In this document: one piece after another, positions 401 through 62,719 of the stretch
Position numbering within the stretch: position 1 is the stretch's first letter
Layout of the letters: each line of letters starts with the position of its first letter
DNA from: an uncultured Gemmatimonadales bacterium
GTDB taxonomy: Bacteria; Gemmatimonadota; Gemmatimonadetes; Gemmatimonadales; Gemmatimonadaceae
Assembly (NCBI GenBank): GCA_963851265.1
Contig: CAWKNZ010000006.1
Span: 96,001-160,000, forward strand
Length of the DNA: 64,000 nucleotides
Direction of reading: 5' to 3'
Notes under the pieces: model-generated
The model's database searches: none
Told to the model about the DNA's origin: nothing
What the model saw: the letters and a program-made list of their open reading frames with translations, nothing else
Translations under genes and position numbers: made by a program

Positions 401-3400
401 TCACGGGTCGTCGCGGTTCTCGTCCTCTCCGATCGCCGGCCCCGCGTCATCGCCCCCGCTCAGTCGCTCCACGCGCAGCAGCTGACGGTAGCGCTGCCCG
501 TTGACGGTGAGCGTGACCAGGTAGTCGCCGCTCGCGACCGCCGGCGCGGCCCCGCGCCCGCGCCCGCCGCCGAACAGCCCGAACCCGCCGCGCTCGACCG
601 GGCGTCCCGGAACGCGGAGCAGCTCGGTGATCGCTTCGGTGCCGCCCGGGAACGCGTTGATCGCGTCGAGTGGGCTCTCCTCAACACCGCCCGCGGCCGC
701 ACCCTCGCCGCCGGCGGCAGCGCCGGGACGCGCCGCGCCGGCGCCGACGAACGCGCCCTCACCCGGGCGGGCGACGAACGCGCTCCCCGTGCCGCCCCGC
801 TGGCTCGCGCGGAAGAAAGTCGCCGCATCGACCGCCCCCGAGGTGATCTGTCGGAGCGTCGCGACGATCTGGCGTGACGTGCCCGCCTTCTCGAGCGAGT
901 CGATCACGAACGTCGCGCGCTGCGCGCGCTCCACGCTGTCGCGCCGCTGCGAGGGCGAGAGGGGCGGGCGCGGTGCCGGGCGGCCGCGGAAGTCCCACAC
1001 GACGCGGTGCAGCCCGGCCGTGGCCGGGCCCGTGAGCGTGCGGACCGTGTCGCCGCGCGCGTTCGTGATGAGGATGCTCGCCTGCGGCCCGCGCGGGCCG
1101 CGCCGCCCGCCGCCGGGTCCGGCGGCTGCGTTGCCCGCCGCGCCTGGCGCGCCCGCGCCCTGCGTCGCCGCCACGGCGGTCGCGCTCGGCGGCGGCGGCG
1201 TGCCGGCGCGGGCGGCCGTCGGGCTCTCGTCCTGCGCCGTCGCGCCCGCGGCGGCCGCGGTGTTGTTCCCGACCACCGTCGTCGCCCCGCCGCCGTTGGG
1301 CGCGTCGCCGGGGCCGATGCGCGCCACCGCGGCGCCGGCCGCCGCACCCGCCACGCGGTACACGATCTCCGCGCCGTATCCCGGGCTCGGCGCCGCGAAC
1401 ACCTTCTGCCCCGAGCCGTTGGACGACTCACCCGTCGCCGGCCCCTGGCCGTACTCGTAGCCCGTCTTCGGCTCGAAGAGGTACGTCGGAGCGGCGGCGA
1501 CCGTCGCCATGCGGCTTCCCGCCATCTGCTGCAGCGGCGTCACGTCGACGATCCACAGCCCGCGGCCGTGCGTGGCCGCGATCAGCTCGCGGTCGCGCGG
1601 GTGCACCTTGAGGTCGAACACCGGCACGGTCGGCAGTCCGGCCATGAAGCGCTGCCACGACGCGCCGCGGTCGAGCGAGACGTACGCGCCTAACGACGTG
1701 CCGACGTAGAGCAGGTCGCGGTTGACCGGGTCCTCGCGGATCACGTGCACCTGGTCCGCGCTCCCCGTCGGCAGCCCCGCGGCGATCGAGCGGAACGTGC
1801 GCCCGCCGTCGGTCGTCGCGTAGACGTACGGCGTGAAGTCGTTCCAGCGGTGGTTGTCGAAGGTGACGTAGAAGGTGAGCGAGTCGAAGTGCGACGGCTC
1901 GATGCGGCTCACGTAGACGTCGCCGCGGGCCAGCCCCGGGAAGCGCGCCGCGGAGATCTGCTCCCACGACGCGCCGTCGGTGCGCGTCGTCCACACGTTG
2001 CCGTCGTCGGTGCCGGCGTACAGGAATCCGGGCCGCAGGTACGACTCCGCCAGCGAGACGATCGTGCCGTACGTCTCCGCGCCGGTGGCGTCGAGCGTGA
2101 TGCCGCCCGTCTTGTTGATGCTCGTGTCGATCTTGGCGCGCTGCTGCTTCGAAAGGTCGGGCGAGATGAAATAGAGGCTGTCGCCGCGCCGCGTGGACTT
2201 GAGCACGCGGTTGCCACCCACGTACACCACGTCGGGGTTGTGCGGCGAGAGGAAGAACGGCGTCTCCCAGTTGAAGCGCACGTCGAACGCGGCGGAGTCG
2301 GCGCGCTGGCGCTCGCGAATCGCGGTGACGCGCTCGCGAACGTCGCGCGTTTCCGGCCGCGTGGTGTCGCCCCGCGCGACGAGCACGGAATCCTCGAACT
2401 GCTGGTAGCGCGGCCGGAACGCGGGTTTGACCAGCGCGTTCCGCTCGCCGGTGCGCAGGTTGAGGCGCGAGATGTTGCCGCCCTGCGACTCGCCGAACAC
2501 CACCCACGATTCCTGGGGGTGCTGCGCCGTGTAGAACCCGTCGCCGCCGGCGATGGTGAACCAGTAGGCGTTGGTCACGGGCCCGCTCTTGCGCCGGCTC
2601 GGCCCGCACCACGAGCCGTTGTCCTGGGCGCCCGCGCACACGTTGTACGGCGTCTCGAAGTCGTAGCTGACGTCGTAGAACTGGGCGATCGGCAGGACGG
2701 CGCTGAAGTCGTAGTTGCCGCCGCCGTCCCACGTGATCGAGATGCCGCCGTCGTCGCCGACGACCATGTGCTCGGGGTCGCCCGGGTCGATCCACATCGC
2801 GTGGTGGTCGACGTGGATGCCCTGCGTGGCCGTGCGCGCGGTCCTGCCGCCGTCGCTGGACACGAGCACCGGCGTCGACGAGAACCAGACGCGGTCGGGA
2901 TTGCGCGGGTGCACGCGCACCTGCGAGTAGTAGAACGGGCGCGTGTCGGCGTCGTTCATCTTCTCCCACGTGCGGCCGCCGTCCTTCGTGCGGTACAGTC
3001 CGTTCCCGAGCTTCTGCTTCGGCGTCCCCTTCGGCACGGTGCGCCCGCGGACCGAGTCGGCCTCGACCAGCGCGTAGACGATGTTCGGGTCCTGCGGGTA
3101 GATCGAGAAGTTGATGCGTCCCTTCTGCGTCTCGGGGAAGCCGCCGCCGCGGATCTCGGTCCACGTGGCGCCGGCGTCGGTGCTCTTCCACAGCCCGGAG
3201 CCCGGCCCGCCGCTCGTCAGGAAGTAGGGGCCGCGGACGCGCTCGTAGCTCGACGCCCACACCGTGTTGGGGTCCTTGGGGTCGATCGCCACGTCCACGA
3301 AGCCGGCGCGCGGACTCACGAACTTGACGAGCTTCCACGTCGCCCCGCCGTCCTCGGTCTTGTAGAGCCCGCGCTCGGGGTTCGCCGCCCACGCCGCGCC

Positions 3401-4763: not shown

Positions 4764-5359
4764 CGAGATCTCCGGCAACATTGAGTTCAGCATCCGAGCG
4801 CCAAACGGCGCGCCGCCGCGCGGGCTGACCGCCCACGCGTACGTGACGCGGACGTCACTGTGTCGCTAAACGGATGACTACGCCAGCATCTCGCGGCAAC
4901 GTTGCGAAATCTTTGCGAATAATTACGGTCGGGGAGCGGGATTGCTACTGTCGCTCGTCGGGGACGTCGTACTCTAAGTTCGGATTCCTCTCGCACGGTC
5001 GGCGGGCCATGTCGTTGCCTACCGCATGGTGCGCGGGGCCGGGCCGGGTCGGGATCGTCCGCATGCTGCCTTCGCAGGCACCGCCCCGCGCCCGGGCGAT
5101 CAAGGACCGAGTCCGCGGCCCCGCGCGCCGCGTCGGCGGCAGCCACGTCACGTTAGGCATCCCCTCCGACGCCGCGCGGCCCGCCCGACGTCGCGGCGCG
5201 CCGTCCCGATTGCGCGGTCGCCGGTCGACGACCCGCGAAACGTGCACGAGTGGCCCGACACGTCCCGCTTCGGGTCGCGCCGGGCGGCGATTGTTGTCGC
5301 TCGCCCCTACCGTTCGGGCGTCGGAGCAGCCCTGGGCCCCTCACCCACGCCGTCGCCAC

Positions 5360-7278: not shown

Positions 7279-10200
7279 ATGCGCGCGTCTCTCCCTCGCC
7301 TCACGCTTGCCGCCGCGGTCGCGGTGGCCGCTCCGACGACCGGTCGCACGCAGGCGCCGGCCGTCGCCTCACCGCCGGGCGCCGCAGGTGATCCCGCCGC
7401 GGCCATGCACTGGCGCGAGATCGGCCCCACGCGCGCCGGCCGCGCGCGCGCCCTCGCCGGCGTGCCGAGCCGGCCGAACGTGTTCTACGTCGGCTTCGAC
7501 AACGGCGGCGTGTGGCGCTCGACCGACTACGGCTCCACGTGGCAGCCGATCTTCGACGCCGAAGGCACCGGCTCGATCGGCGCGATCGCCGTCTCGCCCA
7601 GCAACCCCGACGTGATCTACGTGGGCACCGGCGCGGGCATCATCCGCCCCGACCTCGCCATCGGCGACGGCGTCTACAAGTCGACCGACGGCGGCAAGAC
7701 GTGGACGCACCTCGGCCTGCGCGACTCGCAGATGATCGCGATGATCGACATCGACCCGCGCGACCCCGACCGGATCTTCGTCGCCGCGTTGGGCCACCCG
7801 TACGGGCCCAACGCCGAACGCGGCATCTTCCGCTCGACCGACGGCGGGCGCACGTTCGCGAAGGTGCTCTACAAGGACGAGTACACGAGCGGCAACGACG
7901 TGCGCATGGACCCGCGCGATCCGAACACGGTGTACGCGACGCTCTGGCAGCAGCAGCAGAGCTTCATCGAGGGGCAGGGGTTCAGCGGGGCGGGGAACGG
8001 CATCTACAAGTCGACCGACGGCGGGACGACCTGGCGGCAGCTGACGAACGGGCTGCCGTCCGTCATCCAGGCGAACCTCGCGATCGCGCCGAGCGACCCG
8101 CGGACGCTCTACGCGGCGGTCGCGGGCGCGGGGCCCGACGGCGGCGTCGGGCGCGGGGGCACGGGCGTCGTCGGCTTCTACACGTCGGGCGACGCGGGTG
8201 AGCACTGGCGCCTGGCCGTGCAGAACGTGACGAGCGGCAGCGGGCAGGGCACCGACGCGCACGATGCGCACGGCCCCGACCGGCGGGCCGGCGCCGCCGC
8301 GACCGGCGGTGCGGCCGGCACCGCGGCGGGGGCCGCCGGTGCGCCCGACGCCGCTCCGCGCGGAAGCGGCGGGGCGGGCGGCACGCGCGCCGACTCGGCC
8401 GGCGCGGCCGCGCGGGGCGACGCGCCGACGTTAGGCGATCCGCGCCCGATGATCCGCATCGGCGGCGGCGACCTGCCGACGCTCGCCGTCGACTCCCGGA
8501 ACCCGCGCGCGGTCTACAGCTCGTCCACCGTGCTCTGGCGCACCGAGGACGCGGGCCTCACGTGGACCGCGGTGCGCGGCGCGCCGGGCGGCGACGACTA
8601 CCAGAAGACCTGGATCAACCCGAACGACCCCAACGTCCTCCTCGTCGTCTCGGACCAGGGCGCGGTGGTCTCCGCCAACCGCGGCGCGTCGTGGAGCAAC
8701 TGGTACACGCAGCCCACGGCCGCGATGTACCACGTGTCGACCGATTTCGCCTTCCCCTACCGCGTGTGCGGCGGCCAGCAGGACTCGGGCTCGGCGTGCG
8801 TGGAGAGCCGCTCGATGGACGGCGAGATCACCTTCCACGACTGGCACCCCGTGAACATCCAGGAGTACGGGATCGCCGCGCCGGACCCCAGGAACCCCGA
8901 CGCGGTCTACGGGTCGATGCGGACCAACGTCTCGCTCTACGACCGCAAGACCGGGCAGACGACCTTCGTCGGCCCCGACGCGACGGCGCGCGGGACGGAG
9001 TTCGGGCGCAACGTGCGGACGATGCCGATCAACTGGTCGCCGCTGGACCCGAACACGCTTTACTACACGTCCAACGCGGTGTGGAAGAGCACGGACCACG
9101 CACACAGCTGGACGCGCATCAGCCCCGACCTCGCCCGGCCGACGTGGGCCGTGCCGGCGAGCGCGGGCAAGTACGCGGCGACCGTGACCCCCGCGCCGGC
9201 CGGCGCGATCACCGCGTTCGCGCCTTCGCCGCGCGACGCGCAGGTGCTGTGGGCCGGCACCGACGACGGCAACGTGCAGCGCACGAGCGACGGCGGCGCG
9301 CACTGGACTAACGTCACCCCCGCGGCCATCAAGCCCTGGACGCGCATCTTCAACCTCGACGCCGGGCACTTCGACGCGCGCACCGCGTACGCGGCGGCCA
9401 ACACGTTGCGAATCGACGACCGCGACCCGCACTTCTGGCGCACGCACGACGGCGGGCAGACGTGGACCGAGATCGACCGCGGGATCGCCCCCGGCGCGGT
9501 CGCCAACTCCATCCGCGAGGACCCGCGCACCCCGGGGCTGTTGTACGGCGCCACCGACACCCAGGTGTGGGTCTCGTTCGACGACGGCGACCACTGGCAG
9601 TCGCTCCGCCGCGACATGCCCGCGATCTCGGTGCGCGACCTCCAGGTCAAGGACGACACCACGTGCCTGTGCGCCGACCTCGTCGCCGCCACGCACGGGC
9701 GCGGCTTCTGGATCCTCGACGACCTCACGCCGCTGCGCCAGGCCGCGGCCCTGCGCGCGGCCGCCGCGTCGCGGTCGGCCTACCTCGTGAAGCCCGCGAC
9801 GGCCGTGCGCGTGCGCTTCGCGACCAACGACCCCACCCCCTGGCCGCCCGAACTTCCCGCCGGCGAGAACCCGCCGCCGGGCGCGATCCTCGACTACGCG
9901 CTCGCCGCCGACGCGGCGGGGCCGGTCTCGCTCGAAATTCTCGACGCGGCGGGCAAGGTGGTGCGCACCTACTCGAGCGGCGACCGCACGTCCGACCCCG
10001 ACCCCGCGCTCGACCCCGCGGCGTACGACCGCCTGTGCCAGCGCACGCCGTCCGCCCCGCACTGCGACGTGCCCCTGTACTGGCCCGCGCCGGCGATGCG
10101 CATCTCGACCGCGGCCGGGATGCACCGCGTGAGCTGGGACCTGCACTACCAGCCGATCGCGGGCGGCGCGGACGCCGGCGCTGGTGACGACGAGGGCGGC

Positions 10201-12421: not shown

Positions 12422-13432
12422 TCACGACGGGCCGCCTTCGCGCTCGCCGCCTAACGGGACGCGCGTCCCCGCGCCCGCGGCGACGGCCTTCGCGTGGACG
12501 TGCACTGCCGCCGCGACGTCCTCCACCGCGAGGCCGAGCGACTTGAACAGCGTGACCTCCTCGGCCGAGCGGCGGCCCGCGATGCGGCCGAGCAGCAGCT
12601 CGCCGAGCTCACCCACGATGTGCGCGTCGTCGACGGCGGCTTCGGCCCTCGCCATCAGGAAGTCGCCCGCCTCGGCCAGCGCCGACTCGCGGCGGTCGAC
12701 GTAGAGCCGCGCGCGGCGCACGGCCTCGGCGTCCAGCTCGCGCGCGCTCGCGACGCTCGCGCCGACGGCGTTCACGTGCGCGCCGGGCGCGAGCCACCTG
12801 CCGCGCAGCACGGGCTCGCGTGACGCGGTCGTGGTGCACACCACCGCCGCGCCGTCCACCGCCGCCTCCGCGCCCGCCACGGCCACGACCGGGATCGCGT
12901 GCCGCTCGGCGGCCCGCCGTGCGAACGCCTCCGCGCGCGCGTACGTCCGACTCCACACCCGCACGCGCGCGATCGGCCGGACGTGGCACATCGCGTCGAG
13001 GTGCGTCGCGGCCTGCACGCCGGCACCGAGGATGGCGAGGTCGGTCGCGTCGGCGCGCGCCAGCGCCCGCGTCGCGATTCCCGAGACGGCGGCCGTGCGG
13101 ATCGCCGTGATCGCGCTCGCGTCCATCACGGCCAGCAGGCGTCCCCGTTCCGACTCGAAGAGCAGCACGGCTCCCTGGTGCGAGTCGAGCCGAGTGCCCT
13201 CGTTGCCCGGAAACACCGTGATCACCTTGACGCCGAGGGACGCCGGACGGGCGAGCGCGGCGGGCATCGTGGCGAAGGCGCCGTGGCCGTCGGCGAGCCG
13301 CAGGACGGTGCGCAGCGGGAGCGACGCCTCACCGGCGGCGAGCGCGCGCAACGCGTCGTCCATGACCTCGATGCACTCGCCCATCGGGAGCAGCGCCCCG
13401 ACCTCGGCCTGATTGACGACGAGGATGTCCAT
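12422..13432 (-). CDS. Ornithine cyclodeaminase / mu-crystallin family protein
   Basis: ITAIRTAAVS, ILGAGVQA NAD-binding motif, GAHVNAVG, TLFKSLGLAVEDVAAA. Confidence 0.92.
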   Translation of the reverse strand: MDILVVNQAEVGALLPMGECIEVMDDALRALAAGEASLPLRTVLRLADGHGAFATMPAALARPASLGVKVITVFPGNEGTRLDSHQGAVLLFESERGRLLAVMDASAITAIRTAAVSGIATRALARADATDLAILGAGVQAATHLDAMCHVRPIARVRVWSRTYARAEAFARRAAERHAIPVVAVAGAEAAVDGAAVVCTTTASREPVLRGRWLAPGAHVNAVGASVASARELDAEAVRRARLYVDRRESALAEAGDFLMARAEAAVDDAHIVGELGELLLGRIAGRRSAEEVTLFKSLGLAVEDVAAAVHVHAKAVAAGAGTRVPLGGEREGGPS

Positions 13433-18379: not shown

Positions 18380-18399
18380 CCGCCGCGCGCCGGCCGCGC

Positions 18400-27515: not shown

Positions 27516-27542
27516 CGATCGGCGGCGTCGGGCCGGGCCGCG

Positions 27543-42060: not shown

Positions 42061-44376
<2,316 letters not shown>

Positions 44377-44377
44377 T

Positions 44378-46090
44378 TCAGGCCACGACGGCGGCGTCGC
44401 GGAGCAGCGCCTCGACGAGCACCGCGCGCGCCGCGTGGTCGCCGTCGCCGATCGCCGGCGGGTCGATCAGCTCGGCGTAGCAGCGCGCCGCCGCCGCGGG
44501 CGCGGGATCACCCGCCGCGGCACCGCGCGCCGCATCCTCGGCGAGCAGCACGAGCGCGAGGCTCTGCGCCAGCCGGTGCAGCAGGCGGCGCGCGTACACC
44601 GGACCGGCGTCGGGCGACGCGGTGGTCGCGGCGTAGGCGCGCCGGTCCCCGTCGAGGCGGCCCGCGAGCGCCGCGCGCAGCCCGCCGGGTTCGTCAGGCA
44701 GCACGGCGAGCGCCCCGCCCGCGCGGCGCTCGTACGCGGCGAACCCGCCGTAGCGCGGGTGGAGCAGGCGCATGAGTTCGAGCGCCTGGATGTTGGCGGG
44801 CCCTTCCCACACGGTGAGCACCTGCGCGTCGCGCAGGAGACGCTCGACCGGGTAATCGCGCGTGTAGCCGTTCCCGCCGAGCAGTTCGAGCGCGGCGCGG
44901 CTCGCGGCCACCGCGTCGTCGGCGGTCAGGTACTTCGCGAGGGCGGTGGTCAGGCGCAGCCACGCCCGGCGCGCGGGGTCGCGAAGCGCGTCGTCGACCG
45001 CGCCCGCGGCCTCGAAGGCGAGGAGGGTGCCCGCGCGCCACCGCACCGCCAGCTCGGCGAGCGTCTCCTGCACCATCGGGTAGTCGGCGATCGCGCGGCC
45101 GAACGCGCGCCGCCGCGTCGCCCACGCGAGCGCTTCCGCGAGCGCCCGGCGCTGCACGCCGGCCGCGCCGACGGCGTTGTGCACGCGGCTGTAAGTGAGC
45201 GCCTCGAGCATCAGGCGCAACCCGTCCGGCGGCGCCGCGACCTCCACGGCTTCGGCGCCTAACAGCTCGATCTCGCCGGTCGGCAGGCCGCGCGTGCCGA
45301 GCTTCTCCTTGAGGCGGCGGATGAGGTAGTGGTTGACGCGCCCGTCGTCGAGGTGGCTCGGGACCAGGTAGAGGCCGAGCCCGGCGGAGCCCGGCGGGGC
45401 GCCCGCCGGGCGGGCGGTGGCGAGCGCGAGGCCGCCGTTGGCGTTGCTGGCGAACCACTTGAGGCCGTGGAGCGCGTGCGTCGCGGTCCAGCGACCCGCG
45501 ACATCCGGCTGAGCCGCGACCGGACGCGCCTCGGTGGTCGTCGCGCCCACGTCGCTGCCGCCGTGCATCTCGGTCGCCCAGGTGCCGCCGGTCTTGGCGC
45601 GCCCGTCCGTCCGGGTGAGGTCGGGCAGGAACCGTTCGCGCAGCGCGGGCGAGGCGAAGTGGCCGAGCACGTACGCGACCGCGCCGGTGAGGGTGACCGG
45701 GCAGTGCAGGCTGATGTCGGCCTGCGACAGCAGGTACCCCATCGTGAAGCTCAGCAGATGCGGCGCGCCGTCGTGGTACGGACGGCCGACGATGCCGCGC
45801 GCGTAGACCTCGTCGTGCTGGGCGGCGTAGGCGGCGTTGAGCACGATCCGGTTGACCACGCGCCCGTCGCGGTCGTACGTCTCGAGCCGCGGCGGCGCGT
45901 CGCGGTCCGTCGTTGCCGCCTGCGCGTCGACCTCGGTCCGCACCCAGCGGTGGAAGTCGCCGAGCTCCGCGCGGTACCGGTCGAAGCCGGGCACGCGCGC
46001 TTCGAGTCGCGGGGCGAGGTACGCGTCGTACGCGTCGTCGGCGTGACGCGCGGGCGCGGCACGCGGCGGGGCGTTGCGGTCGGTCGTCAC
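44378..46090 (-). CDS. Acyl-CoA dehydrogenase family protein (AidB-like)
   Basis: CPVTLT, TEMHGGSDV, GLKWFAS, RLKEKLGTR, RRAFG, LGGNGY, LRDAQVLTVWEG. Confidence 0.9.
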   Translation of the reverse strand: MTTDRNAPPRAAPARHADDAYDAYLAPRLEARVPGFDRYRAELGDFHRWVRTEVDAQAATTDRDAPPRLETYDRDGRVVNRIVLNAAYAAQHDEVYARGIVGRPYHDGAPHLLSFTMGYLLSQADISLHCPVTLTGAVAYVLGHFASPALRERFLPDLTRTDGRAKTGGTWATEMHGGSDVGATTTEARPVAAQPDVAGRWTATHALHGLKWFASNANGGLALATARPAGAPPGSAGLGLYLVPSHLDDGRVNHYLIRRLKEKLGTRGLPTGEIELLGAEAVEVAAPPDGLRLMLEALTYSRVHNAVGAAGVQRRALAEALAWATRRRAFGRAIADYPMVQETLAELAVRWRAGTLLAFEAAGAVDDALRDPARRAWLRLTTALAKYLTADDAVAASRAALELLGGNGYTRDYPVERLLRDAQVLTVWEGPANIQALELMRLLHPRYGGFAAYERRAGGALAVLPDEPGGLRAALAGRLDGDRRAYAATTASPDAGPVYARRLLHRLAQSLALVLLAEDAARGAAAGDPAPAAAARCYAELIDPPAIGDGDHAARAVLVEALLRDAAVVA

Positions 46091-46205: not shown

Positions 46206-48239
46206 ATGGCGGGCCTACGGGGTCGAACCACGGCGGCAATCGGGCACGCGGCGCCCACGGCGCGGTTCGGCGGGCCCGCGGCGCTGGCCGCGCGGGTCGG
46301 CGCCGTACTCATGGCGGTCACGGCGCTCGCCCCGGCGCTCGCCCCGGCGCGCGCGCCGGCGCAGCCTGCGGCCGCGCGAGCCGCGGCCGCGCCGGGTGCC
46401 CCGACGGAGGGTCTCTACCTTCCGCGCGCGGTCAAGCGCGCATTCTCCCGGGGCACGCGCTCGCTCGACGGGCGACCTGGCCCGCGCTACTGGCAAAACC
46501 GCGCGCGCTACACGATCACGCTCACCACGCTGCCTCCCGACCGCGCGGTGCGCGGGACGGAGCAGATCGTCTACGCGAACAACAGCCCCGACACGCTGCG
46601 GACGCTCGTGTTCAAGCTGTTCGCCAACATCCACAAGCCGGGTGCACCGCGCGAGGCGCCGGCGAGCCCCGATTATCTCACGTCGGGCGTGCAGGTCGAC
46701 GCGTTCACGGTCGACGGCCGCGAGGCGCGCTGGGGCGACGACGCGCGCACCTTCACGGTGCACGAGGTGCCGCTCGCCACGCCGCTCCTGCCGCACGACT
46801 CGGTCCGCCTCGCGATCAGCTGGCACTACGACCTGTCGCGCGAGGCCGGCCGCGAGGGGATGCTCGACTCGACGACGTCGTACCTCGCGTACTTCTACCC
46901 GCGCGTGGCCGTCTACGACGACTACAACGGGTGGGACCGGATGACGTTCACCGACGCGCAGGAGTTCTACAGCGACTTCAACGACTACGACGTCACGCTG
47001 CGCGTGCCGGCCAACGACGTCGTCTGGGGCACGGGCACGCTGACCAACGCCGCGGCCGTGTTGCGCCCCGAGCCGCTCCGGCGCTTTCGGGCGTCGCTGA
47101 CGTCGGACACCACGATCCACGTCGCCACGCGCGCGGAGTTGGCCGCGCACAGCGTCACCGTCCCCGCGGCGGCCGCCGGCGCGCCGGTCGCGTGGCACTT
47201 CGCCGCGACCAACGTGCCCGACGTGACCTTCGCCGTGAGCGACCACTACGTGTGGGATGCCGCGAGCGTCGTGGTCGACACGGCAACGGGCCGGCGCGCG
47301 GGCGTGCAGGCCGCGTACAACGACACGGCCGTCGACTTCCGCTCCATGGTGCAGTTCGGCCGCCACTCGCTCGACTGGCTGTCGCGCCACTGGCCGGGCG
47401 TGCCCTACCCGTACGAGAAGACGACGGTGGTGCAGGGCAGCGCCGACATGGAGTACCCGATGATGGTCAACGACGGCAGCACGCGCGACACCACGTTCTC
47501 GCGCTTCGTCGTCGAGCACGAGATCGCGCACACGTGGTTCCCGTTCTACATGGGGATCAACGAGACGCGCTACGGCTTCATGGACGAGGGCTGGGCGACG
47601 ACGTTCGAGTACCTCATCGGGCTCGCCGACCTCGGCGCCGCGCGCGAGACGGCCTTCTACCAGCAGTTCCGCGTCGCGCGCTGGATCCGCGATCCGTCGC
47701 CGGTCGAGGACCTCCCGATCGTCACCCCGGGCGACGTACTCTCCGGCGCGGGACTCGGCAACAACGAGTACGGCAAGGCGTCGCTCGGCTACCTGGCCGT
47801 GAAGGATCTGTTAGGCGACGCCGTGTTCCGCCGGTCGCTGCACGCGTTCATGGACCGGTGGCACGGGAGGCACCCGATCCCGTGGGACTTCTTCGACACC
47901 TTCGACGACGTGTCCGGGCAGAACCTCGACTGGTTCTGGCGCGCCTGGTTCTTCTCCAACGCGTACATCGACCTCGCGGTCGACGGCGTGCGGGGGACGC
48001 CCGGCGGCTACGCCGTCTCGCTCCGCAACGTCGGCGGCATGCCGGCGCCCGTGAACCTCGTGCTGACCTACGCCGACGGCAGCACCGAGACCGTGCACGA
48101 GACGCCGGCGATCTGGGCGTCCGACCAGCAGCGCGCGACGGTCACCCTCCGCACGGGCAAGGCGCTCCGCTCGCTCGCGCTGGAGGGCGGCATCTTCATG
48201 GACGCGGACCGCTCGAACGACCGCTGGCAGGCGCCGTAG
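46206..48239 (+). CDS. M1 family metallopeptidase, secreted
   Basis: GGAGG RBS; YWQNRA.Y; MEYPMM; HEIAH..(18)..E (MDEG). Confidence 0.9.
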   Translation: MAGLRGRTTAAIGHAAPTARFGGPAALAARVGAVLMAVTALAPALAPARAPAQPAAARAAAAPGAPTEGLYLPRAVKRAFSRGTRSLDGRPGPRYWQNRARYTITLTTLPPDRAVRGTEQIVYANNSPDTLRTLVFKLFANIHKPGAPREAPASPDYLTSGVQVDAFTVDGREARWGDDARTFTVHEVPLATPLLPHDSVRLAISWHYDLSREAGREGMLDSTTSYLAYFYPRVAVYDDYNGWDRMTFTDAQEFYSDFNDYDVTLRVPANDVVWGTGTLTNAAAVLRPEPLRRFRASLTSDTTIHVATRAELAAHSVTVPAAAAGAPVAWHFAATNVPDVTFAVSDHYVWDAASVVVDTATGRRAGVQAAYNDTAVDFRSMVQFGRHSLDWLSRHWPGVPYPYEKTTVVQGSADMEYPMMVNDGSTRDTTFSRFVVEHEIAHTWFPFYMGINETRYGFMDEGWATTFEYLIGLADLGAARETAFYQQFRVARWIRDPSPVEDLPIVTPGDVLSGAGLGNNEYGKASLGYLAVKDLLGDAVFRRSLHAFMDRWHGRHPIPWDFFDTFDDVSGQNLDWFWRAWFFSNAYIDLAVDGVRGTPGGYAVSLRNVGGMPAPVNLVLTYADGSTETVHETPAIWASDQQRATVTLRTGKALRSLALEGGIFMDADRSNDRWQAP

Positions 48240-50037
48240 CGACGCCGCCCGCCTTCACCCGCGTGGTCCACTCGCGCACGCGCTGCTCGAGCACGTCCAT
48301 GGGCAGCGCGCCGGCGCCGAGCACCTCGTCGTGGAAGGCGCGCACGTCGAAGCGTGGGCCTAACGTCTGGCGGGCCTCGTCGCGGAGGCGCAGGATCGTC
48401 AGCTGCCCGACCTTGTACGCGAGCGCCTGACCCGGCCACGCGATGTAGCGGTCGGTCTCCGATTGCACCTCCGCGTCGGCCGCGCTCGAGTGCGCCCGAA
48501 AGAACGCCACGGCCTGCTCGCGCGTCCACCGCCGGTCGTGGATGCCGGTGTCGAGCACGAGGCGGATCGCGCGGAGCATCTCGTCGTCCAGGCGCCCGTA
48601 GTCGCTGTACGGGTTCTGGTAAAACCCGACCTCCTTGCCGAGCCGCTCGGCGTACAGCGCCCACCCCTCGACGTACGCGGTGTAGCCCGCCTGCTGGCGG
48701 AACGGCGGGAGCGACGGCAGCTCCTGCGCGATCGAGACCTGCATGTGGTGCCCCGGCACCCCCTCGTGGTACGCCGTCGACTCGTTGTTGATGGTGAGCT
48801 GGTGCGCGAAGTCGTAGGTGTTGACGAACACGTGCCCGGGGCGCGACCCGTCGGGCGTGCCCTGGTTGTACGCGGTCGACGCCTCCTTCTCGCGGAACGG
48901 CTCGACCGGCAGGATCTCCAGCTTCGCCTTCGGCAGCCGGCCGAAGAGCGTGGGGAGCTTCGCCCACATCTGCGCCGTGTAGCGGCGGTACTCGTCGAGG
49001 ATCTGCTCGCGCGAGGTCGGGTGCAGGGCCGGGATCTTCACGATCGAGTCGCGGAACGTGCGGACGTCGGCGAAGCCGAGCCGGCGCGCGATGGCGAGCT
49101 GCTCGCCCTCGATGCGCGCGACCTCCCGCAGCCCGAGCGCGTGGATCTCGTCGGGCGTCATGCGCGTGGTCGTCGTGCGGCGCACGGCGAGCGCGTACCG
49201 CGCCGCGCCGTTAGGCAACGCCCGCGTGCCGATGTCGGCGCGCCCGCGCGGCGCGTACTCGTCGCGGACGAAGGCGGTGAAGCGCAGGTACGCGGGCAGC
49301 ACGCTGTCGCGCACGGCGGCGAGCACGGCGGCGCGCAGCCGCGCCCGGTCGGCGTCGGAGAACTCCTTCGGCATCTGCGCGAGCGGCACCGCGAACGGCG
49401 TCGAGTCGGGCGCCTGGCCCGCGATGCCGCCCGCCTGCGTCGCCACCTGGGTGAGCAGGATCTTCGGCGGCATGAGCCCCTCCGCCATCCCCTCCCGCAT
49501 CACGGCGGTCACCTGCGCGAAGGCCCGCGGCACCGCGCGGAGTCGTGCGACGTAGTCGTCGTAGTCCTTGACGGTCGCGAACGAGAGCGAGGTGACGAGC
49601 TGTGGCAGGTCGATGTGCAGCCCCGACATCTGCGTGACCGGCATCTCCCACTCGCGGAAGGGCGCGGCCTCCAGCGCGGTGCGCAGGTTGAGCAGCATCA
49701 GGTCGCGGTTGAGCCGCTCCTGCTCGGGGAAGCCCGCCGTGTCGATAGCCGCGAAGCGCGCTTCGAACCGCCGTGCCGCGGCGACGTCGCGCTCGGCGGC
49801 GGCCGCCGACATGTCGCTGAGCTGGTCGTTGTAGCGCTTGTCGCCGAGCACCGACGCGAATTCGGGCGTCGTCCGCAGCGTGTACTCCCACTGCTCGTCG
49901 AGCAGGGCGTGGAGCGCGCGGACGCGGTCCTGAACGGCGGGGGAGAGCGTCACGGGCGGCGGAGCCACCTGTGCGCCCGCGCGGGCGCTGGCACAGGCGA
50001 GAACGAGCGCGGCGAGCAGCCGGGGAGTGCGCGGCAT
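48196..50037 (-). CDS. DUF885 family protein (putative metallopeptidase)
   Basis: Signal peptide; IHALGLREV; HEGVPGHH; YVEGWALYAE; RLVLDTGIH; RYIAWPGQALAYKVG. Confidence 0.92.
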   Translation of the reverse strand: MPRTPRLLAALVLACASARAGAQVAPPPVTLSPAVQDRVRALHALLDEQWEYTLRTTPEFASVLGDKRYNDQLSDMSAAAAERDVAAARRFEARFAAIDTAGFPEQERLNRDLMLLNLRTALEAAPFREWEMPVTQMSGLHIDLPQLVTSLSFATVKDYDDYVARLRAVPRAFAQVTAVMREGMAEGLMPPKILLTQVATQAGGIAGQAPDSTPFAVPLAQMPKEFSDADRARLRAAVLAAVRDSVLPAYLRFTAFVRDEYAPRGRADIGTRALPNGAARYALAVRRTTTTRMTPDEIHALGLREVARIEGEQLAIARRLGFADVRTFRDSIVKIPALHPTSREQILDEYRRYTAQMWAKLPTLFGRLPKAKLEILPVEPFREKEASTAYNQGTPDGSRPGHVFVNTYDFAHQLTINNESTAYHEGVPGHHMQVSIAQELPSLPPFRQQAGYTAYVEGWALYAERLGKEVGFYQNPYSDYGRLDDEMLRAIRLVLDTGIHDRRWTREQAVAFFRAHSSAADAEVQSETDRYIAWPGQALAYKVGQLTILRLRDEARQTLGPRFDVRAFHDEVLGAGALPMDVLEQRVREWTTRVKAGGVATAPASGRSSGPRP

Positions 50038-50196: not shown

Positions 50197-51540
50197 GTGA
50201 CCACGCTCAACGCGCTCCGCGTCCTCGCCCGCGGCGCCTGTCTGGCCGCCCTCTGCGCGACGCACCTCGCCGCGCAGGCGCCGGTGGATTCCGCGCTCGC
50301 GGCGTACATCGCCGGCGTGCGCGCGATCGACGCGCACGCCCATCCCATGCGCCCCGTCGCGCCGGGCGCGCCCGCGGACTCGGAGTACGACGCGCTGCCG
50401 CTCGACGGCATCCCGCCCGCCCCCCTGCCCGCGCGCTTCCGGCCCGGGCACCCGTCGTGGCGCGCGGCGCAGCGCGCGCTCTACGGCGTCACGCCGGCCG
50501 ACACGACGGCCGCCGCCGCCGCGCCGCTCGCGGCCGCCGTCGCGCGCGTGCAGGCGGCACGCGGCGCGGCGTTCCCGGCCTGGGCGCTGGACCAGGCGGG
50601 CGTGGAGGTGATGCTCGCCAACCGCGTGGCGATGGGCCCGGGACTCGACGCGCCCCGCTTTCGTTGGATCTCGTTCGTCGACGCGCTGATGCTGCCGTTG
50701 GACGTCCGCGGCGAGGCGGCGCGCACGCCAGACGTGCGGTCGCTCTATCCGCGGGAGGCGACGCTCCTGCAGCGCTACCTCCGCGACCTGGGGCTGCGGG
50801 CGGTCCCGCCGACCCTCGACGCCTACGTGCGCCAGGTGGTCGCGCCGACGCTCGACCGGCAGCAACGCGCCGGCGCGGTCGGCGTGAAGTTCGAGGCGGC
50901 GTACCTGCGCCCGCTCGACTTCGACGACCCGGATCCGGCGCTCGCGCGCCGAGTCTACGCGCGGTACGTGGCGGGCGGCACGCCGACGCACGCCGAGTAC
51001 AAGGCCCTGCAGGACTACCTGTTTCGCGAGATCGCGCGGGCGGCGGGGCGGCGCGGGCTCGCCGTGCAGATCCACGTGCTCGAGCAGTTCGGCGGCTTCT
51101 ACTCCGCGCGCGGCAGCGCGCCGCACCTGCTCGAGCCGGCGTTCAACGATTCGACGCTTCGGGGCACGAACTTCGTCCTCGTGCACGGCGGCTGGCCGCT
51201 CGTCGGCGAGACGCAGGCGCTGCTCGCGAAGCCGAACGTCTACGCCGACGTCTCGATGATGGACCTGCTCGTGGAGCCGCCCGTCCTCGCAGGCGTGCTG
51301 CGGCCGTGGCTCGACGAGTGGCCGGAGAAGGTGCTCTACGGCAGCGACGCGTTCGACAACGGGCCCGCGCAGGGGTGGGAGCAGGCCGCCTGGGTCGCGT
51401 CCGCCAACGCGCGGCGTGCGTTAGGCATCACGCTCTCCGCGATGCTCGGCGACGGCGAGGTCGACCGGGCGGGCGCCGAGCGGCTCGCGCGGATGGTGTT
51501 GCGCGAGAACGCGCGCGCGGCCTACCCGCGGCTGCGCTGA
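50197..51540 (+). CDS. Amidohydrolase family (TIM-barrel) protein, secreted
   Basis: IDAHAHP; VGVKF..AY.R.LDF; VQIH; FVLVHGGWP; KVLYGSDA. Confidence 0.85.
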   Translation: MTTLNALRVLARGACLAALCATHLAAQAPVDSALAAYIAGVRAIDAHAHPMRPVAPGAPADSEYDALPLDGIPPAPLPARFRPGHPSWRAAQRALYGVTPADTTAAAAAPLAAAVARVQAARGAAFPAWALDQAGVEVMLANRVAMGPGLDAPRFRWISFVDALMLPLDVRGEAARTPDVRSLYPREATLLQRYLRDLGLRAVPPTLDAYVRQVVAPTLDRQQRAGAVGVKFEAAYLRPLDFDDPDPALARRVYARYVAGGTPTHAEYKALQDYLFREIARAAGRRGLAVQIHVLEQFGGFYSARGSAPHLLEPAFNDSTLRGTNFVLVHGGWPLVGETQALLAKPNVYADVSMMDLLVEPPVLAGVLRPWLDEWPEKVLYGSDAFDNGPAQGWEQAAWVASANARRALGITLSAMLGDGEVDRAGAERLARMVLRENARAAYPRLR

Positions 51541-57572: not shown

Positions 57573-57734
57573 GCCGCCGGGCACCATGTTAGGCACGACC
57601 CGCACGACCCGTAATCTCCCCGCGCGCGTCCTCGCACGCGCGCACGCACGCCCCGAGTTCCTCCCCACCGCCGTGCCGCTCCGCGCCACGACACGAGTGG
57701 TTGCCGCTCACTTCACCTGTTGGAGACGTACGTC

Positions 57735-61015: not shown

Positions 61016-62719
61016 ATGACTTTCTATCGGACAGTGACGCGGACCGCGGCGGTCCTCGCGGCCGCCGCCCTCGGGCTCGCGGGCTGCAAGGACGCCACGA
61101 GCCTTCCGGAAACGGCGCAGACCTTCGTCTCGCCCGACCGGTACTACCAGAACGACGCGCAGGCGGCGGCGGCCGTGAACGGCGCGTACGCGCCGATCAT
61201 GGGCTGGAACGGGTGGAAGTCGCCCGCCCAGTACTCCGTGATGTGCGACGACAACGAGATGACCTGCTGGAACTGGATGGCGGGCGGCTGGGCCGGGCAG
61301 CAGGGCGGCCAGTGGTACATGCAGGACAACAGCCTCTACATCGGCGACTACCAGATCATCGAGCGGGCGAACGAGATCCTGGCGAACGTGCCGAAGAGCA
61401 CGGGGATCACGGACGCGATGAAGAAGACGGCCACCGGCCAGGCGTACTTCGCCCGGGGGTACGCCTACTTCGACCTCGTCCGGCGCTACGGCGGCGTCCC
61501 GATCCGCACGGCGCAGTACACGCCCGACCCCCAGAACGGGGCGATGGCGCGGGCCGAGCCCGGGGCGGTGTGGAAGCAGGCCGCGAGCGACCTGCGCCAG
61601 TCGACGGCGCTGCTGCCGGCCACGTACACCACGCCTAACGGCCAGGGACTGCCGCGCCTCGCGACGGCGTGGGGGCTCCTCGCCAAGGTCTACCTGCACA
61701 TGGCCGGCGCCGAGGCGGTCGGCACGTCGCTCGCGTCGGCGAAATCGGCGTACATCGACTCGGCGCGCGCGGCGGCGCAGCTCGAAATGGCCGACGCGTC
61801 GGTCACGCTCGAGCCGGACTACATGGCGCTGTACGACATCAACAAGCAGAACACGAGCCCCGAGATCCTCTTCGCGGCGCAGGGCGCCGCGGTGAACAAC
61901 GGCGGCTCGCAGATCCCGGCGTTCCTCACCCCGCAGGGCGACTGCACGCTGATCGGCGGCTGCGGGATGGGGTTCCTCAGCATCCGCGAGGACTTCTACC
62001 GCGGCTTCGAGGCGGGCGACGCGCGCGTCGCGCCGAACAAGGCGGTCGCGATGTCGTGGGAGTACACGCGGAGCGCCGCCGGGAAGATCCGCGTCCTGCA
62101 GACCGACTCGCTCGCGAAGCTCAAGGCCTCGGGGCTGGTCGTCAGCGACAAGACGTTCAACTACGGCGCGTGGACGGAGGCGTGCGCGGCGTTCGGGACC
62201 AACCTCGACTCGCTCACCGTGCAGAACCCGTCCACCGGCGCGACGACCACCTCGGTGATCGGCGTGTCGCGGCCGCTCTACAGCCTCAAGTACATCGACC
62301 CGCAGCACCTCACGTCCGACCAGGCGGCGGCGAACAACTTCATCCTGCTGCGCCACGCCGACGTGCTGCTCGTGTTCGCCGAAGCGGAGAACGAGAAGAA
62401 CGGCCCGACGGCTGCCGCCTACAGCGCGATCAACAAGGTGCGCGCCCGCGCGGCCCTGAAGCCGCTCGCCGGGCTGAGCCAGGACCAGTTCCGCCAGGCG
62501 GTGTGGACGGAGCGCGAGCACGAGCTCTACGCGGAGTTCCAGGCGCGCTTCGACCTCGTCCGCGAGGGGCGCTGGCTCGCCCTGATGAACGCGCCGTCGA
62601 CCGTGTCGGACCTCGCGACCGGCCCGTGCCGCCCGCGGCAGTCGTTCCAGGTGCTGCAGAACATCCCGGGCCGCGAGCTGTCGGCCAACCCGCTGATGAC
62701 GCAGAACCCGGGCTACTGA
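61016..62719 (+). CDS. SusD/RagB family glycan-binding lipoprotein
   Basis: Lipobox LAGC; QAYFARGYAYFDLVRRYGGVP; LLAKVYL; RHADVLL; EREHEL..E..RFDL.R; QNPGY. Confidence 0.93.
   Translation: MTFYRTVTRTAAVLAAAALGLAGCKDATSLPETAQTFVSPDRYYQNDAQAAAAVNGAYAPIMGWNGWKSPAQYSVMCDDNEMTCWNWMAGGWAGQQGGQWYMQDNSLYIGDYQIIERANEILANVPKSTGITDAMKKTATGQAYFARGYAYFDLVRRYGGVPIRTAQYTPDPQNGAMARAEPGAVWKQAASDLRQSTALLPATYTTPNGQGLPRLATAWGLLAKVYLHMAGAEAVGTSLASAKSAYIDSARAAAQLEMADASVTLEPDYMALYDINKQNTSPEILFAAQGAAVNNGGSQIPAFLTPQGDCTLIGGCGMGFLSIREDFYRGFEAGDARVAPNKAVAMSWEYTRSAAGKIRVLQTDSLAKLKASGLVVSDKTFNYGAWTEACAAFGTNLDSLTVQNPSTGATTTSVIGVSRPLYSLKYIDPQHLTSDQAAANNFILLRHADVLLVFAEAENEKNGPTAAAYSAINKVRARAALKPLAGLSQDQFRQAVWTEREHELYAEFQARFDLVREGRWLALMNAPSTVSDLATGPCRPRQSFQVLQNIPGRELSANPLMTQNPGY

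What the first reader, a model, noticed from the sequence alone, without database searches (positions are those of the whole stretch)
1688..61639. Dispersed motif YGTTAGGCR overrides codon bias: candidate undescribed DNA signal
Seen in the sequence: 22 exact GTTAGGC cores counted by hand, about one per 2.9 kb, split 11 on each strand. All 22 are preceded by a pyrimidine and 21 of 22 are followed by a purine. Thirteen lie in genes as a TTA-Leu codon followed by GGC-Gly (e.g. 1688, 8430, 12449, 17447, 18005, 31695, 35319, 47810), although these genes otherwise use almost only CTC/CTG. Three are read as CCT-AAC (Pro-Asn; 39922, 49210, 61633), three supply stop codons (18398, 27510, 27927) and three are intergenic. 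One-mismatch variants occur near 9306, 21049, 32132 and 63328. A rough base-composition estimate at about 74% GC gives about 5 heptamers or 1-2 nonamers, and probably fewer because TA is depleted. Established knowledge: short motifs that are accommodated inside genes through rare codons include DNA uptake sequences (Neisseria DUS, Pasteurellaceae USS), cyanobacterial HIP1, Chi and KOPS. Inference: the motif is non-palindromic and has no strand skew, which argues against Chi, KOPS and HIP1. It fits better with an uptake sequence, a binding site for a nucleoid or segregation protein, or a methyltransferase/repair-driven motif. I do not know of such a motif described for this lineage.
Basis: partly seen in the sequence, partly recalled or inferred. 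Interest (0 to 1): 0.88.

Follow-up and report, generated by a model that had tools for sequence, protein, structure and literature searches.

The report
Genome-wide DNA word matching integron core
A soil bacterium of the Gemmatimonadaceae has written the exact DNA word (C/T)GTTAGGC about 1,800 times through ordinary genes, stop codons and spacers against its own codon habits, and the word is spelled exactly like the core recombination site of its own integron gene cassettes, but what reads it is still unknown.

Summary
The window has 22 GTTAGGC against 2.5 expected. The genome has 1,762 against 126 (order-3 Markov). In genes there are 1,299 against 74 under synonymous shuffling. 998 of 1,327 TTA codons are TTA-GGC.

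In word-poor relatives it occurs mainly in cassette arrays.

Enrichment is confined to one order of Gemmatimonadota and is scattered there (46 of 151 family genomes; at least 7 changes on a ComEC tree). The word is the same everywhere, with no dialects.

It shows no replichore polarity, depends little on orientation once coding opportunities are counted, prefers permissive places (3' ends, stop codons) and is commonest in the highest-GC3 genes. It is conserved above background. Each copy has a ~300 bp exclusion zone in two lineages.

IntI, ComEC, PilM, RecC and Vsr do not track it. G000's intI is interrupted.

My best reading (0.4) is a DUS/USS/HIP1-like transfer tag co-opted from attC. The main rival is an in-cell protein-binding array.

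This scan found the same word earlier on other windows of this genome and in another genome.

The parts
1688..1694 (-). word copy, read as xxG-TTA-GGC (Leu-Gly) in a Sortilin/BNR-repeat gene (401-3907, -)
5152..5158 (+). word copy, intergenic by my gene calls
8430..8436 (+). word copy, Leu-Gly in a Sortilin/BNR-repeat gene (7279-10806, +)
12449..12455 (-). word copy, Leu-Gly in an ornithine cyclodeaminase-family gene (12422-13432, -)
17447..17453 (-). word copy, Leu-Gly in a FecCD permease gene (17300-18379, -)
18005..18011 (-). word copy, Leu-Gly in a FecCD permease gene
18398..18404 (-). word copy that supplies a TAG stop (xGT-TAG-GC) of the periplasmic binding protein gene (18400-19236, -)
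27510..27516 (-). word copy that supplies a TAA stop (GCC-TAA-C) of the hybrid histidine kinase gene (25728-27515, +)
27927..27933 (+). word copy that supplies a TAA stop (GCC-TAA-C) of the GGDEF-EAL gene (27928-30237, -)
31695..31701 (-). word copy, Leu-Gly in the phosphoketolase gene (30435-32942, -). Kept in G001 and G004; CTG-GGC in G003
35319..35325 (+). word copy, Leu-Gly in a Sortilin/BNR gene (34474-37923, +). Kept in G001, G003 and G004
36969..36975 (+). word copy, Leu-Gly in the same gene. Kept in G004, not in G001
39922..39928 (-). word copy read on the other strand as CCT-AAC (Pro-Asn) in the peptidase M16 gene (38492-41299, +). One-letter variants in G003 and G004
41325..41331 (+). 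word copy, intergenic, just after the M16 gene's end
44358..44364 (+). word copy, Leu-Gly near the end of the ETR1_N/PAS histidine kinase gene (42061-44376, +). Kept in G003
45257..45263 (-). word copy, Leu-Gly in the acyl-CoA dehydrogenase gene (44378-46090, -). Kept in G003, not in G004
47810..47816 (+). word copy, Leu-Gly in the peptidase M1 gene (46200-48239, +). CTG/CTC-GGC in G001, G004 and G006
48358..48364 (-). word copy, Leu-Gly if the '-' ORF 48196-51186 is the gene (gene call unsure)
49210..49216 (+). word copy, Pro-Asn if the '-' ORF 48196-51186 is the gene (gene call unsure)
51420..51426 (+). word copy, intergenic by my gene calls
57588..57594 (+). word copy, intergenic, just after the SASA esterase gene's end (55992-57572, +)
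61633..61639 (-). word copy read as CCT-AAC (Pro-Asn) in the SusD-family gene (61016-62719, +)

Best explanation
The word (C/T)GTTAGGC is a double-stranded 'self tag' that biases horizontal transfer of DNA between kin. Most likely it acts at DNA uptake during natural transformation. It has accumulated by molecular drive: fragments that carry it are transferred and recombined more often. It is therefore the same kind of thing as DUS, USS and, on recent evidence, HIP1. Its spelling was not free: it was co-opted from, or selected to match, the R-box core of the integron attC sites that this whole order carries, so every gene cassette carries two tags. Shown here: the abundance, the anatomy, the identity with attC, the phyletic pattern and the presence of a transformation gene set. 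Inferred: that a transfer step reads the word, that drive rather than per-site selection spread it, and which way the link to attC runs.
For: 1. Scale and sharpness are like DUS/USS. G000 has 1,762 copies in 4.6 Mb. That is 13.9x over order-3 Markov for the 7-mer and 24x for CGTTAGGC, and 17x over synonymous shuffles. There is almost no excess of one-mismatch variants. USS and DUS also drop 92- and 82-fold between 0 and 1 mismatch (PMC1939737, passages).

2. It acts at the DNA level and does not depend on orientation. Occupancy is 7.8% of 12,831 Leu-Gly sites and 11.1% of 1,904 Pro-Asn sites on the other strand. It occurs in every frame class. It sits in 126 of 444 TAA stops and 82 of 762 TAG stops, and in spacers. 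There is no replichore polarity.

3. It sits in permissive places. Density is 1.15 per kb in convergent spacers and 0.33 in divergent ones, and 87 against 49 copies lie toward 3' ends in tandem spacers.

4. One copy is enough locally. Pairs closer than 300 bp are depleted to 0.2-0.5 of expectation in G000 and to 0.41-0.51 in G049. Even spacing is reported for USS, and DUS spacing matches conversion fragments (PMC1939737, PMC2397512, passages).

5. It is commonest in the most 'native' DNA. Leu-Gly occupancy rises from 2.7% to 13.3% from the lowest to the highest GC3 quintile. Density rises with local GC (rho 0.38).

6. It is maintained yet turns over. 12 of 20 copies are kept in congeners against a 7-mer baseline of 0.322. 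New copies differ from the homologous sequence by 2-3 letters, as reported for new DUS (PMC2397512).

7. G000 carries ComEC, ComEA-like (next to PilB/PilT), DprA, PilM, PilQ and PilB/T.

8. HIP1 is now linked to pilus and competence genes and is reported to raise transformation (PMC13756078, abstract and Discussion).

9. attC sites of this genome and of word-poor relatives carry the word on both arms, including the flanking C.
Against: No uptake or transformation has been shown for any member of this phylum (none found). The generic machinery does not track the word: ComEC is in 142 of 151 genomes and PilM in 146 of 151, in rich and poor alike. There are no dialects. The same word tops the list in four other rich lineages of 62-73% GC, and two word-poor genomes (200 kb each) have no other hyper-abundant word. 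By contrast, DUS is known for dialects (recalled; Frye 2013 seen only as a reference entry). The trait needs at least 7 changes on a ComEC tree, so a receptor of identical specificity would have to be gained or lost many times. Identity with attC needs an extra assumption. A 45-kb copy-free stretch around gidA-parAB-mnmE is not predicted. The exclusion zone looks step-like at about 300 bp rather than graded. The scan's earlier unchecked notes report similar words in giant viruses, where uptake cannot be the cause.
Confidence: 0.4

Rival explanations
1. The words are an array of in-cell binding sites. A protein with the DNA specificity of an integron integrase monomer binds the duplex word all over the chromosome. 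This could be IntI itself, a relative, or another attC R-box binder. The array would serve chromosome organisation, titrate the integrase, or bridge DNA, and selection would keep one site per roughly 300 bp or more.
For: The duplex word is identical to the paired R''/R' box of the genome's own attC sites, including the flanking base. IntI1 binds double-stranded attI1 at four 7-bp-type sites (PMC12901181, passage). The exclusion radius of about 300 bp is the same in two lineages whose densities differ two-fold, which suggests a physical length. The largest copy-free stretch (45 kb; at least 12 copies expected, 0 seen) surrounds parA-parB-gidA, and the orthologous region is nearly copy-free in G004. 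That is what avoidance of roadblocks near a partition complex would give. The same word occurs in all rich lineages, as expected if an ancestral, order-wide protein sets the spelling.
Against: IntI does not track the word: 35 of 46 rich and 69 of 105 poor genomes have a match (Fisher p 0.25), and 60 of 105 poor genomes have a full-length one. G000's own intI is split by a 2.1-kb insertion, and G001 has only a fragment with a stop. Thousands of sites would each need a selective advantage. The large origin-proximal desert is not seen in G049, G150, G105 or G148. No candidate binder was identified.
Confidence: 0.25
2. The words are the footprint of a modification- or repair-linked bias, as long proposed for HIP1. 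A methyltransferase, or a nicking or repair enzyme, recognises GTTAGGC, and repair or restriction avoidance favours the exact word.
For: The word is an exact 7-mer with restriction-enzyme-like sharpness. The phyletic pattern is patchy, as expected of mobile modification systems. A continuous, non-palindromic 7-bp word with a central A is a plausible methylation target (my inference).
Against: No Vsr was found in G000 or its genus, and Vsr occurs in 9 of 46 rich and 19 of 105 poor genomes (searches lists). The one-step precursors TTG-GGC (494; 3.85% of Leu-Gly against 4.16% TTG overall) are not depleted. Recognition sites of restriction systems are usually avoided, not enriched. This reading does not explain identity with attC. 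Methyltransferases were not surveyed.
Confidence: 0.12
3. The words are made or kept by integron integrase chemistry itself: secondary-site recombination, nicking and repair at near-cognate sites. They would be a by-product of high integrase activity, or seeds for new cassettes.
For: The spelling is identical with the crossover core GTTRRRY, where the crossover lies between G and TT (PMC12901181). Integrons are very common in this family (104 of 151 genomes).
Against: Insertion and excision at a secondary site restore the target and leave no word (inference from the published mechanism). attC-like hairpins are confined to the array: 6 of 9 hits lie in the C10/C6 array, and the other 3 are weak or inside genes. 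So dispersed words are not visibly used for integration. IntI presence does not track the word. intI is broken in G000 while the words are still sharp.
Confidence: 0.07
4. The word is a Chi-like signal. A helicase-nuclease other than RecBCD (AddAB or AdnAB type) recognises it, so that incoming or broken DNA carrying it is spared and recombined.
For: It is a short, exact, non-palindromic word over-represented in core genes, and it could also spread by drive on incoming linear DNA (inference).
Against: There is no clear polarity. Occupancy on the presumed leading against lagging strand differs only 1.2-1.4-fold on one contig. No RecC was found in G000 or its genus, and RecC occurs in 19 of 151 genomes, mostly word-poor. 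This reading does not explain identity with attC. AddAB and AdnAB were not surveyed.
Confidence: 0.06

Closest known systems
DNA uptake sequences: DUS of Neisseriaceae and USS of Pasteurellaceae
   Same: Both are short, exact, non-palindromic words present in thousands of copies on both strands. Both are written into genes in tolerated frames and just past gene ends, are sharp against one-mismatch variants, are more evenly spaced than chance, are conserved yet turn over, and are richest in native DNA (PMC1939737 and PMC2397512 passages).
   Different: This is a different phylum and a different word. No uptake has been shown. There are no dialects across scattered lineages. Inverted pairs are not enriched as terminators: opposite-strand pairs under 100 bp number 7 against 32 expected. 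The word is identical to an integron recombination core. The competence genes present do not track it.
Integron attC R''/R' core (RYYYAAC / GTTRRRY) and secondary (attG-type) sites
   Same: The spelling is exact, including the flanking C, and matches the attC sites of this genome and of its order. The attC of aadB has the same R'' (PMC12901181).
   Different: The dispersed copies are single half-sites inside ordinary genes. They lack a partner arm, hairpin or L boxes. Their abundance does not follow IntI.
HIP1 (GCGATCGC) of cyanobacteria
   Same: Both are hyper-abundant octamer-scale words. Both are conserved, quasi-regularly spaced and patchy within a phylum, with a reader long unknown and now tied to transformation (PMC13756078, abstract and Discussion).
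   Different: HIP1 is a palindrome and a known methylation site. Here the word is not a palindrome and its methylation is untested.
Chi and KOPS/AIMS
   Same: Both are short over-represented words in core DNA.
   Different: Those are strongly polar about the replication axis. This word is not, and no RecC was found.

Membership tests
DNA uptake sequences (DUS/USS) | Word-bearing DNA is taken up or transforms preferentially | not testable with these tools
   Needs uptake or transformation assays. No report for this phylum was found.
DNA uptake sequences (DUS/USS) | Hundreds to thousands of exact copies, far above composition- and codon-aware nulls | tested here: met
   1,762 against 126.5. Genes hold 1,299 against 74.
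DNA uptake sequences (DUS/USS) | Both orientations, no replication polarity | tested here: met
   885 + and 877 -. Occupancy per coding opportunity is alike on both strands. The assembly has 12 contigs, so ori/ter are only inferred.
DNA uptake sequences (DUS/USS) | Steep fall from perfect to one-mismatch copies | tested here: met
   The fall is steeper than in USS/DUS, where one-mismatch copies keep some excess (PMC1939737).
DNA uptake sequences (DUS/USS) | More even spacing than chance | tested here: met
   Gaps under 200 bp: 46 against 130 expected. An exclusion zone of about 300 bp is seen in G000 and G049.
DNA uptake sequences (DUS/USS) | Transformation machinery encoded | tested here: met
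   ComEC, ComEA-like, DprA, PilM, PilQ and PilB/T are present. But the two components surveyed family-wide (ComEC, PilM) are near-universal, so they do not discriminate.
DNA uptake sequences (DUS/USS) | A dedicated receptor (ComP-type minor pilin in Neisseria; recalled) | not tested
   Six prepilin-like genes were listed in G000. None was followed across genomes.
DNA uptake sequences (DUS/USS) | Lineage-specific dialects | tested here: not met
   The same word occurs in all rich lineages sampled. No other word was found in two poor genomes.
Integron attC / attI recombination site | Core GTTRRRY / RYYYAAC | tested here: met
   PMC12901181.
Integron attC / attI recombination site | Two inverted cores 50-150 bp apart that fold into a hairpin | tested here: not met
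   There were 9 hairpin hits genome-wide, 6 of them in the array. The roughly 1,750 other copies are single.
Integron attC / attI recombination site | Co-occurrence with an integron integrase | tested here: not met
   Rich 35 of 46 against poor 69 of 105. intI is interrupted in G000.
Chi | Orientation bias toward the leading strand, and a RecBCD/AddAB reader | tested here: not met
   (no clear bias). No RecC in G000. AddAB not surveyed.
HIP1-type iterated palindrome | Palindromic word that is a methylation site | tested here: not met
   The word is not a palindrome. Methylation cannot be tested here.
Very-short-patch-repair-driven word bias | Vsr endonuclease present, and one-step precursors depleted | tested here: not met
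   No Vsr in G000 or its genus. TTG-GGC is not depleted.

The most novel reading that the evidence does not exclude
In part of the Gemmatimonadales the DNA-uptake (or other transfer) machinery reads the integron attC R-box itself. Gene cassettes would then be the original cargo of a 'cassette-fishing' receptor, and the chromosome has since been tagged thousands of times by molecular drive. Natural transformation and integron cassette capture would be mechanistically coupled through one 7-8 bp word.
Probability: 0.2. Interest if true: 0.92.

Novelty: new variant of a known kind. Interest (0 to 1): 0.8.

Why it matters
Hyper-abundant genome words are known from very few lineages (Neisseriaceae, Pasteurellaceae, cyanobacteria), and their origin is still debated. 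Here one occurs in a little-studied soil phylum. Three properties make the question testable.

- The spelling is tied to a known recombination site, the integron attC core.
- The trait is switched on and off many times within one family while the word stays the same. That is the ideal design for a phylogenetic-profile screen.
- The genus appears to include cultured relatives. Record titles name Gemmatirosa; that a strain is in culture is my recollection.

If the link to integrons is functional, it would connect two major routes of gene acquisition. For annotation, it explains why TTA, TAA and TAG are used in these 73% GC genomes: 75% of TTA codons, 28% of TAA stops and 11% of TAG stops belong to the word.

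Tried and rejected
- **Replichore polarity.** Motif strand follows gene strand only. Occupancy per opportunity differs 1.2-1.4-fold on the two arms of contig C2, from small numbers. I rejected Chi and KOPS.
- **IntI as the switch.** No association.
- **ComEC, PilM.** Near-universal and uninformative. The 8 good genomes lacking ComEC (3 genera) are all word-poor, but three genera are too few to count.
- **RecC, Vsr.** Not found in G000, and they do not track the word.
- **Dialects.** None found.
- **Dispersed solo cassettes at words.** None found.
- **Origin-proximal desert as a general rule.** It is seen in G000 and G004. G049, G150, G105 and G148 have only 5-9 kb gaps at gidA and 0.6-0.9 of expected density over 80 kb, so I did not treat it as general. 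A parS consensus (recalled) with up to 2 mismatches found nothing in G000.
- **The duplicated 1.3-kb segment with an IS110-family gene.** There are only two identical copies, both in the array. It is not a driver.
- **ComEC tree.** 8 of the 81 rows sit on a very long branch and are probably mis-picked ORFs. I did not drop them, so the counts (13 changes, at least 7 forced) include them.
- **Literature.** Searches for the word, for Gemmatimonadota with integrons or uptake sequences, and for attC with uptake sequences found no description of this phenomenon.
- **Not done.** A survey of methyltransferases, AddAB or minor pilins across genomes, and a whole-proteome phyletic screen.

Full report
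**Observation**

The window holds 22 exact GTTAGGC, 11 on each strand, at the coordinates given. Dinucleotide-preserving shuffles give 2.5 on average, and none of 100 gave more than 7. All 22 are preceded by C or T, and 21 of 22 are followed by G or A. The window is ordinary chromosome of about 73% GC. It encodes peptidases, ABC transport, sensor kinases, phosphoketolase, and a TonB-dependent receptor with SusD.

The window lies in a 4.60-Mb assembly of 12 contigs. That assembly holds 1,762 copies, 885 on + and 877 on -. An order-3 Markov model expects 126.5. With the preceding C, the count is 1,396 against 58.3 expected. Every top-ranked 6- to 9-mer of the genome is a piece of this word. The information ends sharply:
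- position -1 is C in 79% and T in 14% of copies;
- position +7 is G in 54% and A in 22%;
- beyond these only the codon periodicity of the flanks is visible.

**Codon-aware tests**

I called genes with a simple codon-usage model (3,766 genes, 90% coding). The 1,762 copies fall into these classes:

| Class | Copies |
|---|---|
| xxG-TTA-GGC (Leu-Gly) | 989 |
| CCT-AAC (Pro-Asn), other strand | 206 |
| GCC-TAA stop | 121 |
| xGT-TAG stop | 70 |
| other frames | 102 |
| intergenic | 274 |

- TTA makes up 1.0% of leucine codons, yet 998 of 1,327 TTA codons are followed by GGC.
- Occupancy per opportunity is similar on both strands: 7.8% of 12,831 Leu-Gly sites and 11.1% of 1,904 Pro-Asn sites. The excess of 'sense' copies therefore reflects amino-acid opportunity, not strand.
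- I shuffled synonymous codons within each gene, which conservatively keeps each gene's TTA codons. This leaves 42 + 32 copies against 1,014 + 285 observed. For the window's genes it leaves 0.6 against 15.
- 126 of 444 TAA stops are GCC-TAA-C, against 126 of 2,555 TGA stops in the same context. 82 of 762 TAG stops are xGT-TAG-GC, against 7 of 2,555.
- A tRNA-Leu(UAA) gene is present.
- One-mismatch variants are not enriched, except at the soft -1 position.

**Anatomy along the genome**

- *Strand.* Motif strand follows gene strand. After allowing for that, I see no replichore polarity. The assembly is fragmented and its GC skew is weak, so this rests on the gene-strand switch of one contig.
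- *Spacers.* Spacer copies prefer 3' ends. Density is 1.15 per kb in convergent spacers, 0.53 in tandem and 0.33 in divergent ones. In tandem spacers 87 copies lie toward the 3' end and 49 toward the 5' end.
- *Position within genes.* Flat.
- *GC.* This A/T-containing word is commonest where the genome is most GC-rich. Leu-Gly occupancy rises from 2.7% in the lowest GC3 quintile of genes to 13.3% in the highest. Density per 10 kb rises from 2.7 to 5.0 across GC sextiles, while other TTA trinucleotides fall.
- *Spacing.* Each copy is surrounded by an exclusion zone. With the integron array left out, pairs closer than 300 bp reach only 0.2-0.5 of expectation in either relative orientation, and the ratio returns to about 1 beyond 300-750 bp. 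In 400 kb of G049, an unrelated rich genome with twice the density, the same zone is seen: 0.41-0.51 below 300 bp and 0.87 at 300-400 bp.
- *Largest gap.* It spans 45 kb (C1:182,876-227,962). At least 12 copies are expected from its Leu-Gly and Pro-Asn content, and none is seen. It is not an island. It holds gidA, parA, parB, mnmE and other core genes.
  - The orthologous stretch of congener G004 has 2 copies in about 40 kb aligned. It is also more diverged (73-83% identity) than the flanks (87-88%).
  - Four rich genomes of other genera show only 5-9 kb gaps at gidA.
  - I leave this unexplained.

**The link to integrons**

In word-poor relatives the few hits lie in one-strand runs spaced about 550-650 bp apart at contig ends. 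When fetched, these prove to be classic cassette arrays. Their 88-105-nt attC hairpins begin GCCTAAC and end CGTTAGGC.

G000 has its own integron.
- A cassette array of small genes lies at the end of contig C10 and the start of C6. Its attC sites are 96-121 nt long and read GCCTAACGCC...CGTTAGGC.
- Its intI is split. HMM positions 2-265 lie at C6:5244-6044 and positions 260-313 at C6:3005-3166. A 2.1-kb insert carrying a large serine recombinase separates them.

The published consensus is R'' = RYYYAAC and R' = GTTRRRY, with the crossover after the G, and the aadB attC has the same R'' (PMC12901181, passages). Integrons are recorded in Gemmatimonadota (PMC8618304, passage).

So the genome-wide 8-mer is the attC core plus its flanking base, which cannot be chance. 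Yet the dispersed copies are single half-sites. A genome-wide scan for paired, folding cores found 9 hits, 6 of them in the array.

**Distribution among relatives**

I scored 151 genomes of the family (at least 85% complete, G000 included) as word-rich if CGTTAGGC reached at least twice the count of the reversed-word control. 46 are rich, at 2- to 34-fold. Most of the rest have 5-50 copies, below the control.

A wider sample covered 251 genomes of the phylum.
- Outside the family, only 2 of 113 genomes of family f2 are rich, both in genus g100.
- G030 of family f3 is rich.
- None of 81 genomes of the other classes and orders is rich.

I built a ComEC tree of 81 genomes. The rich label needs 13 changes, and well-supported branches force at least 7. 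One clade holds 17 rich genomes and one intermediate; the other rich genera are scattered. This is a single-gene tree, and 8 probably mis-picked rows were not removed.

The word is the same in G049, G150, G105 and G148 (62-73% GC). Two poor genomes, G006 and G043 (200 kb each), have no other hyper-abundant word.

Within the genus the copies both persist and turn over.
- 12 of 20 site-by-genome comparisons are conserved, against 32% for arbitrary 7-mers in the same alignments (p about 0.01; the comparisons are not independent).
- Relatives have copies where G000 has CTC/CTG-GGC and the like, mostly 2-3 letters away.

**Candidate readers**

| Family | Genomes with a match (of 151) | In G000 or its genus | Tracks the word? 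|
|---|---|---|---|
| IntI (TIGR02249) | 104 (rich 35 of 46, poor 69 of 105; Fisher p 0.25, not corrected for phylogeny) | present, but interrupted in G000 | no |
| ComEC | 142 | present | no |
| PilM | 146 | present | no |
| RecC | 19, mostly word-poor | none found | no |
| Vsr | 28 | none found | no |

G000 also has a ComEA-like gene beside PilB/PilT, plus DprA and PilQ. The hardware for transformation is therefore present but universal, and nothing I tested behaves as the switch.

**Interpretation**

The anatomy matches point by point what is published for DUS and USS:
- a steep fall from 0 to 1 mismatch, and even spacing (PMC1939737, passages);
- spacing tied to conversion fragments, new copies many mismatches from their homologues, and enrichment in core DNA (PMC2397512, abstract and passages).

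It also matches the current view of HIP1, which correlates with pilus and competence genes and is reported to raise transformation (PMC13756078, abstract and Discussion).

A transfer-bias tag spread by molecular drive is the only known process that needs no per-site advantage. It also fits the rise with GC3, if both follow recombination or residence time. I therefore put it first, at 0.4.

It does not by itself explain four things: why the word is the attC core, why there are no dialects, why the trait flickers while the word stays fixed, or the parAB desert. These fit better with an order-wide protein of integrase-like specificity that binds the duplex word in the cell (0.25). An unidentified variable partner would be needed in either case. 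Modification-linked bias, integrase chemistry and a Chi-like signal are less likely, for the reasons given under the rivals.

**Novelty**

I found no description in print. The searches covered the word itself; Gemmatimonadota with integron/attC; the word together with the core consensus; DNA uptake sequence with Gemmatimonadota; attC with uptake sequence; and Gemmatirosa with competence terms. Only open-access papers and bioRxiv were searched.

The scan's own earlier notes report the same word on other windows of this genome and in another Gemmatimonadaceae genome, with the same closest-known family, and two of them note the integron match. I re-derived each point here.

Record titles of GidA relatives name Gemmatirosa sp. 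(85% identity) and Gemmatimonadaceae MAGs.

Counts include genomes flagged as unpublished (G011, G045, G205, G232, G303), all word-poor.

Noticed in passing
L035:3005-6044 (G000 contig C6, outside the window): The integron integrase gene is split. HMM positions 2-265 and 260-313 lie 2.1 kb apart. The insert carries only a large serine recombinase (Resolvase + Recombinase + Zn ribbon, 561 aa). This looks like a minimal gene-interrupting element that might excise and restore intI.
   Followed up: partly
L030:1-20000, L031, L032:1-6000 (G000 C1:182,876-227,962): This is a 45-kb stretch with no copy of the word (at least 12 expected). It covers gidA, parA, parB, mnmE and other core genes. The orthologous region in congener G004 is nearly copy-free too and is more diverged than the flanks. 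It is not a large desert in four rich genomes of other genera.
   Followed up: partly
G000 genome-wide; L236-L255 (G049): Each word copy has an exclusion zone of about 300 bp for further copies in either orientation. The radius is the same in two lineages whose word densities differ two-fold.
   Followed up: partly
L033:14950-16062 and second copy at G000 C10:206483-207595: An IS110-family transposase gene (370 aa) lies in the cassette array, bounded on both sides by GCCTAAC. It sits inside a perfectly duplicated segment of at least 1.3 kb. It is possibly an attC-targeting insertion sequence that uses the word as its attachment core.
   Followed up: partly
window 401-3907 (-), 7279-10806 (+), 34474-37923 (+): Three paralogous genes of about 1,150 aa carry Sortilin/Vps10 and BNR repeats within 38 kb.
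   Followed up: no
window 22243-27515: An operon of heme oxygenase, bacteriophytochrome histidine kinase, response regulator and hybrid GAF kinase. At 42061-44376 lies a histidine kinase with an ETR1-like (ethylene-receptor) N-terminal domain.
   Followed up: no
window 48196-51540: Two overlapping ORFs of about 1,000 aa lie on opposite strands (48196-51186 - and 48463-51540 +). The + ORF had no Pfam match, and the - ORF was not scanned. Which one is the gene is unresolved, and this affects how two word copies are read.
   Followed up: no
G000 C7:759936-763025: A ComEA-like HHH_3 gene lies directly upstream of PilB- and PilT-type ATPase genes.
   Followed up: no
G000 C8:143542/143554, 241284/241296, 305727/305739: Three pairs of word copies lie exactly 12 bp apart on the same strand (two pairs read as Pro-Asn). 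They are exceptions to the exclusion zone and are perhaps short peptide repeats.
   Followed up: no
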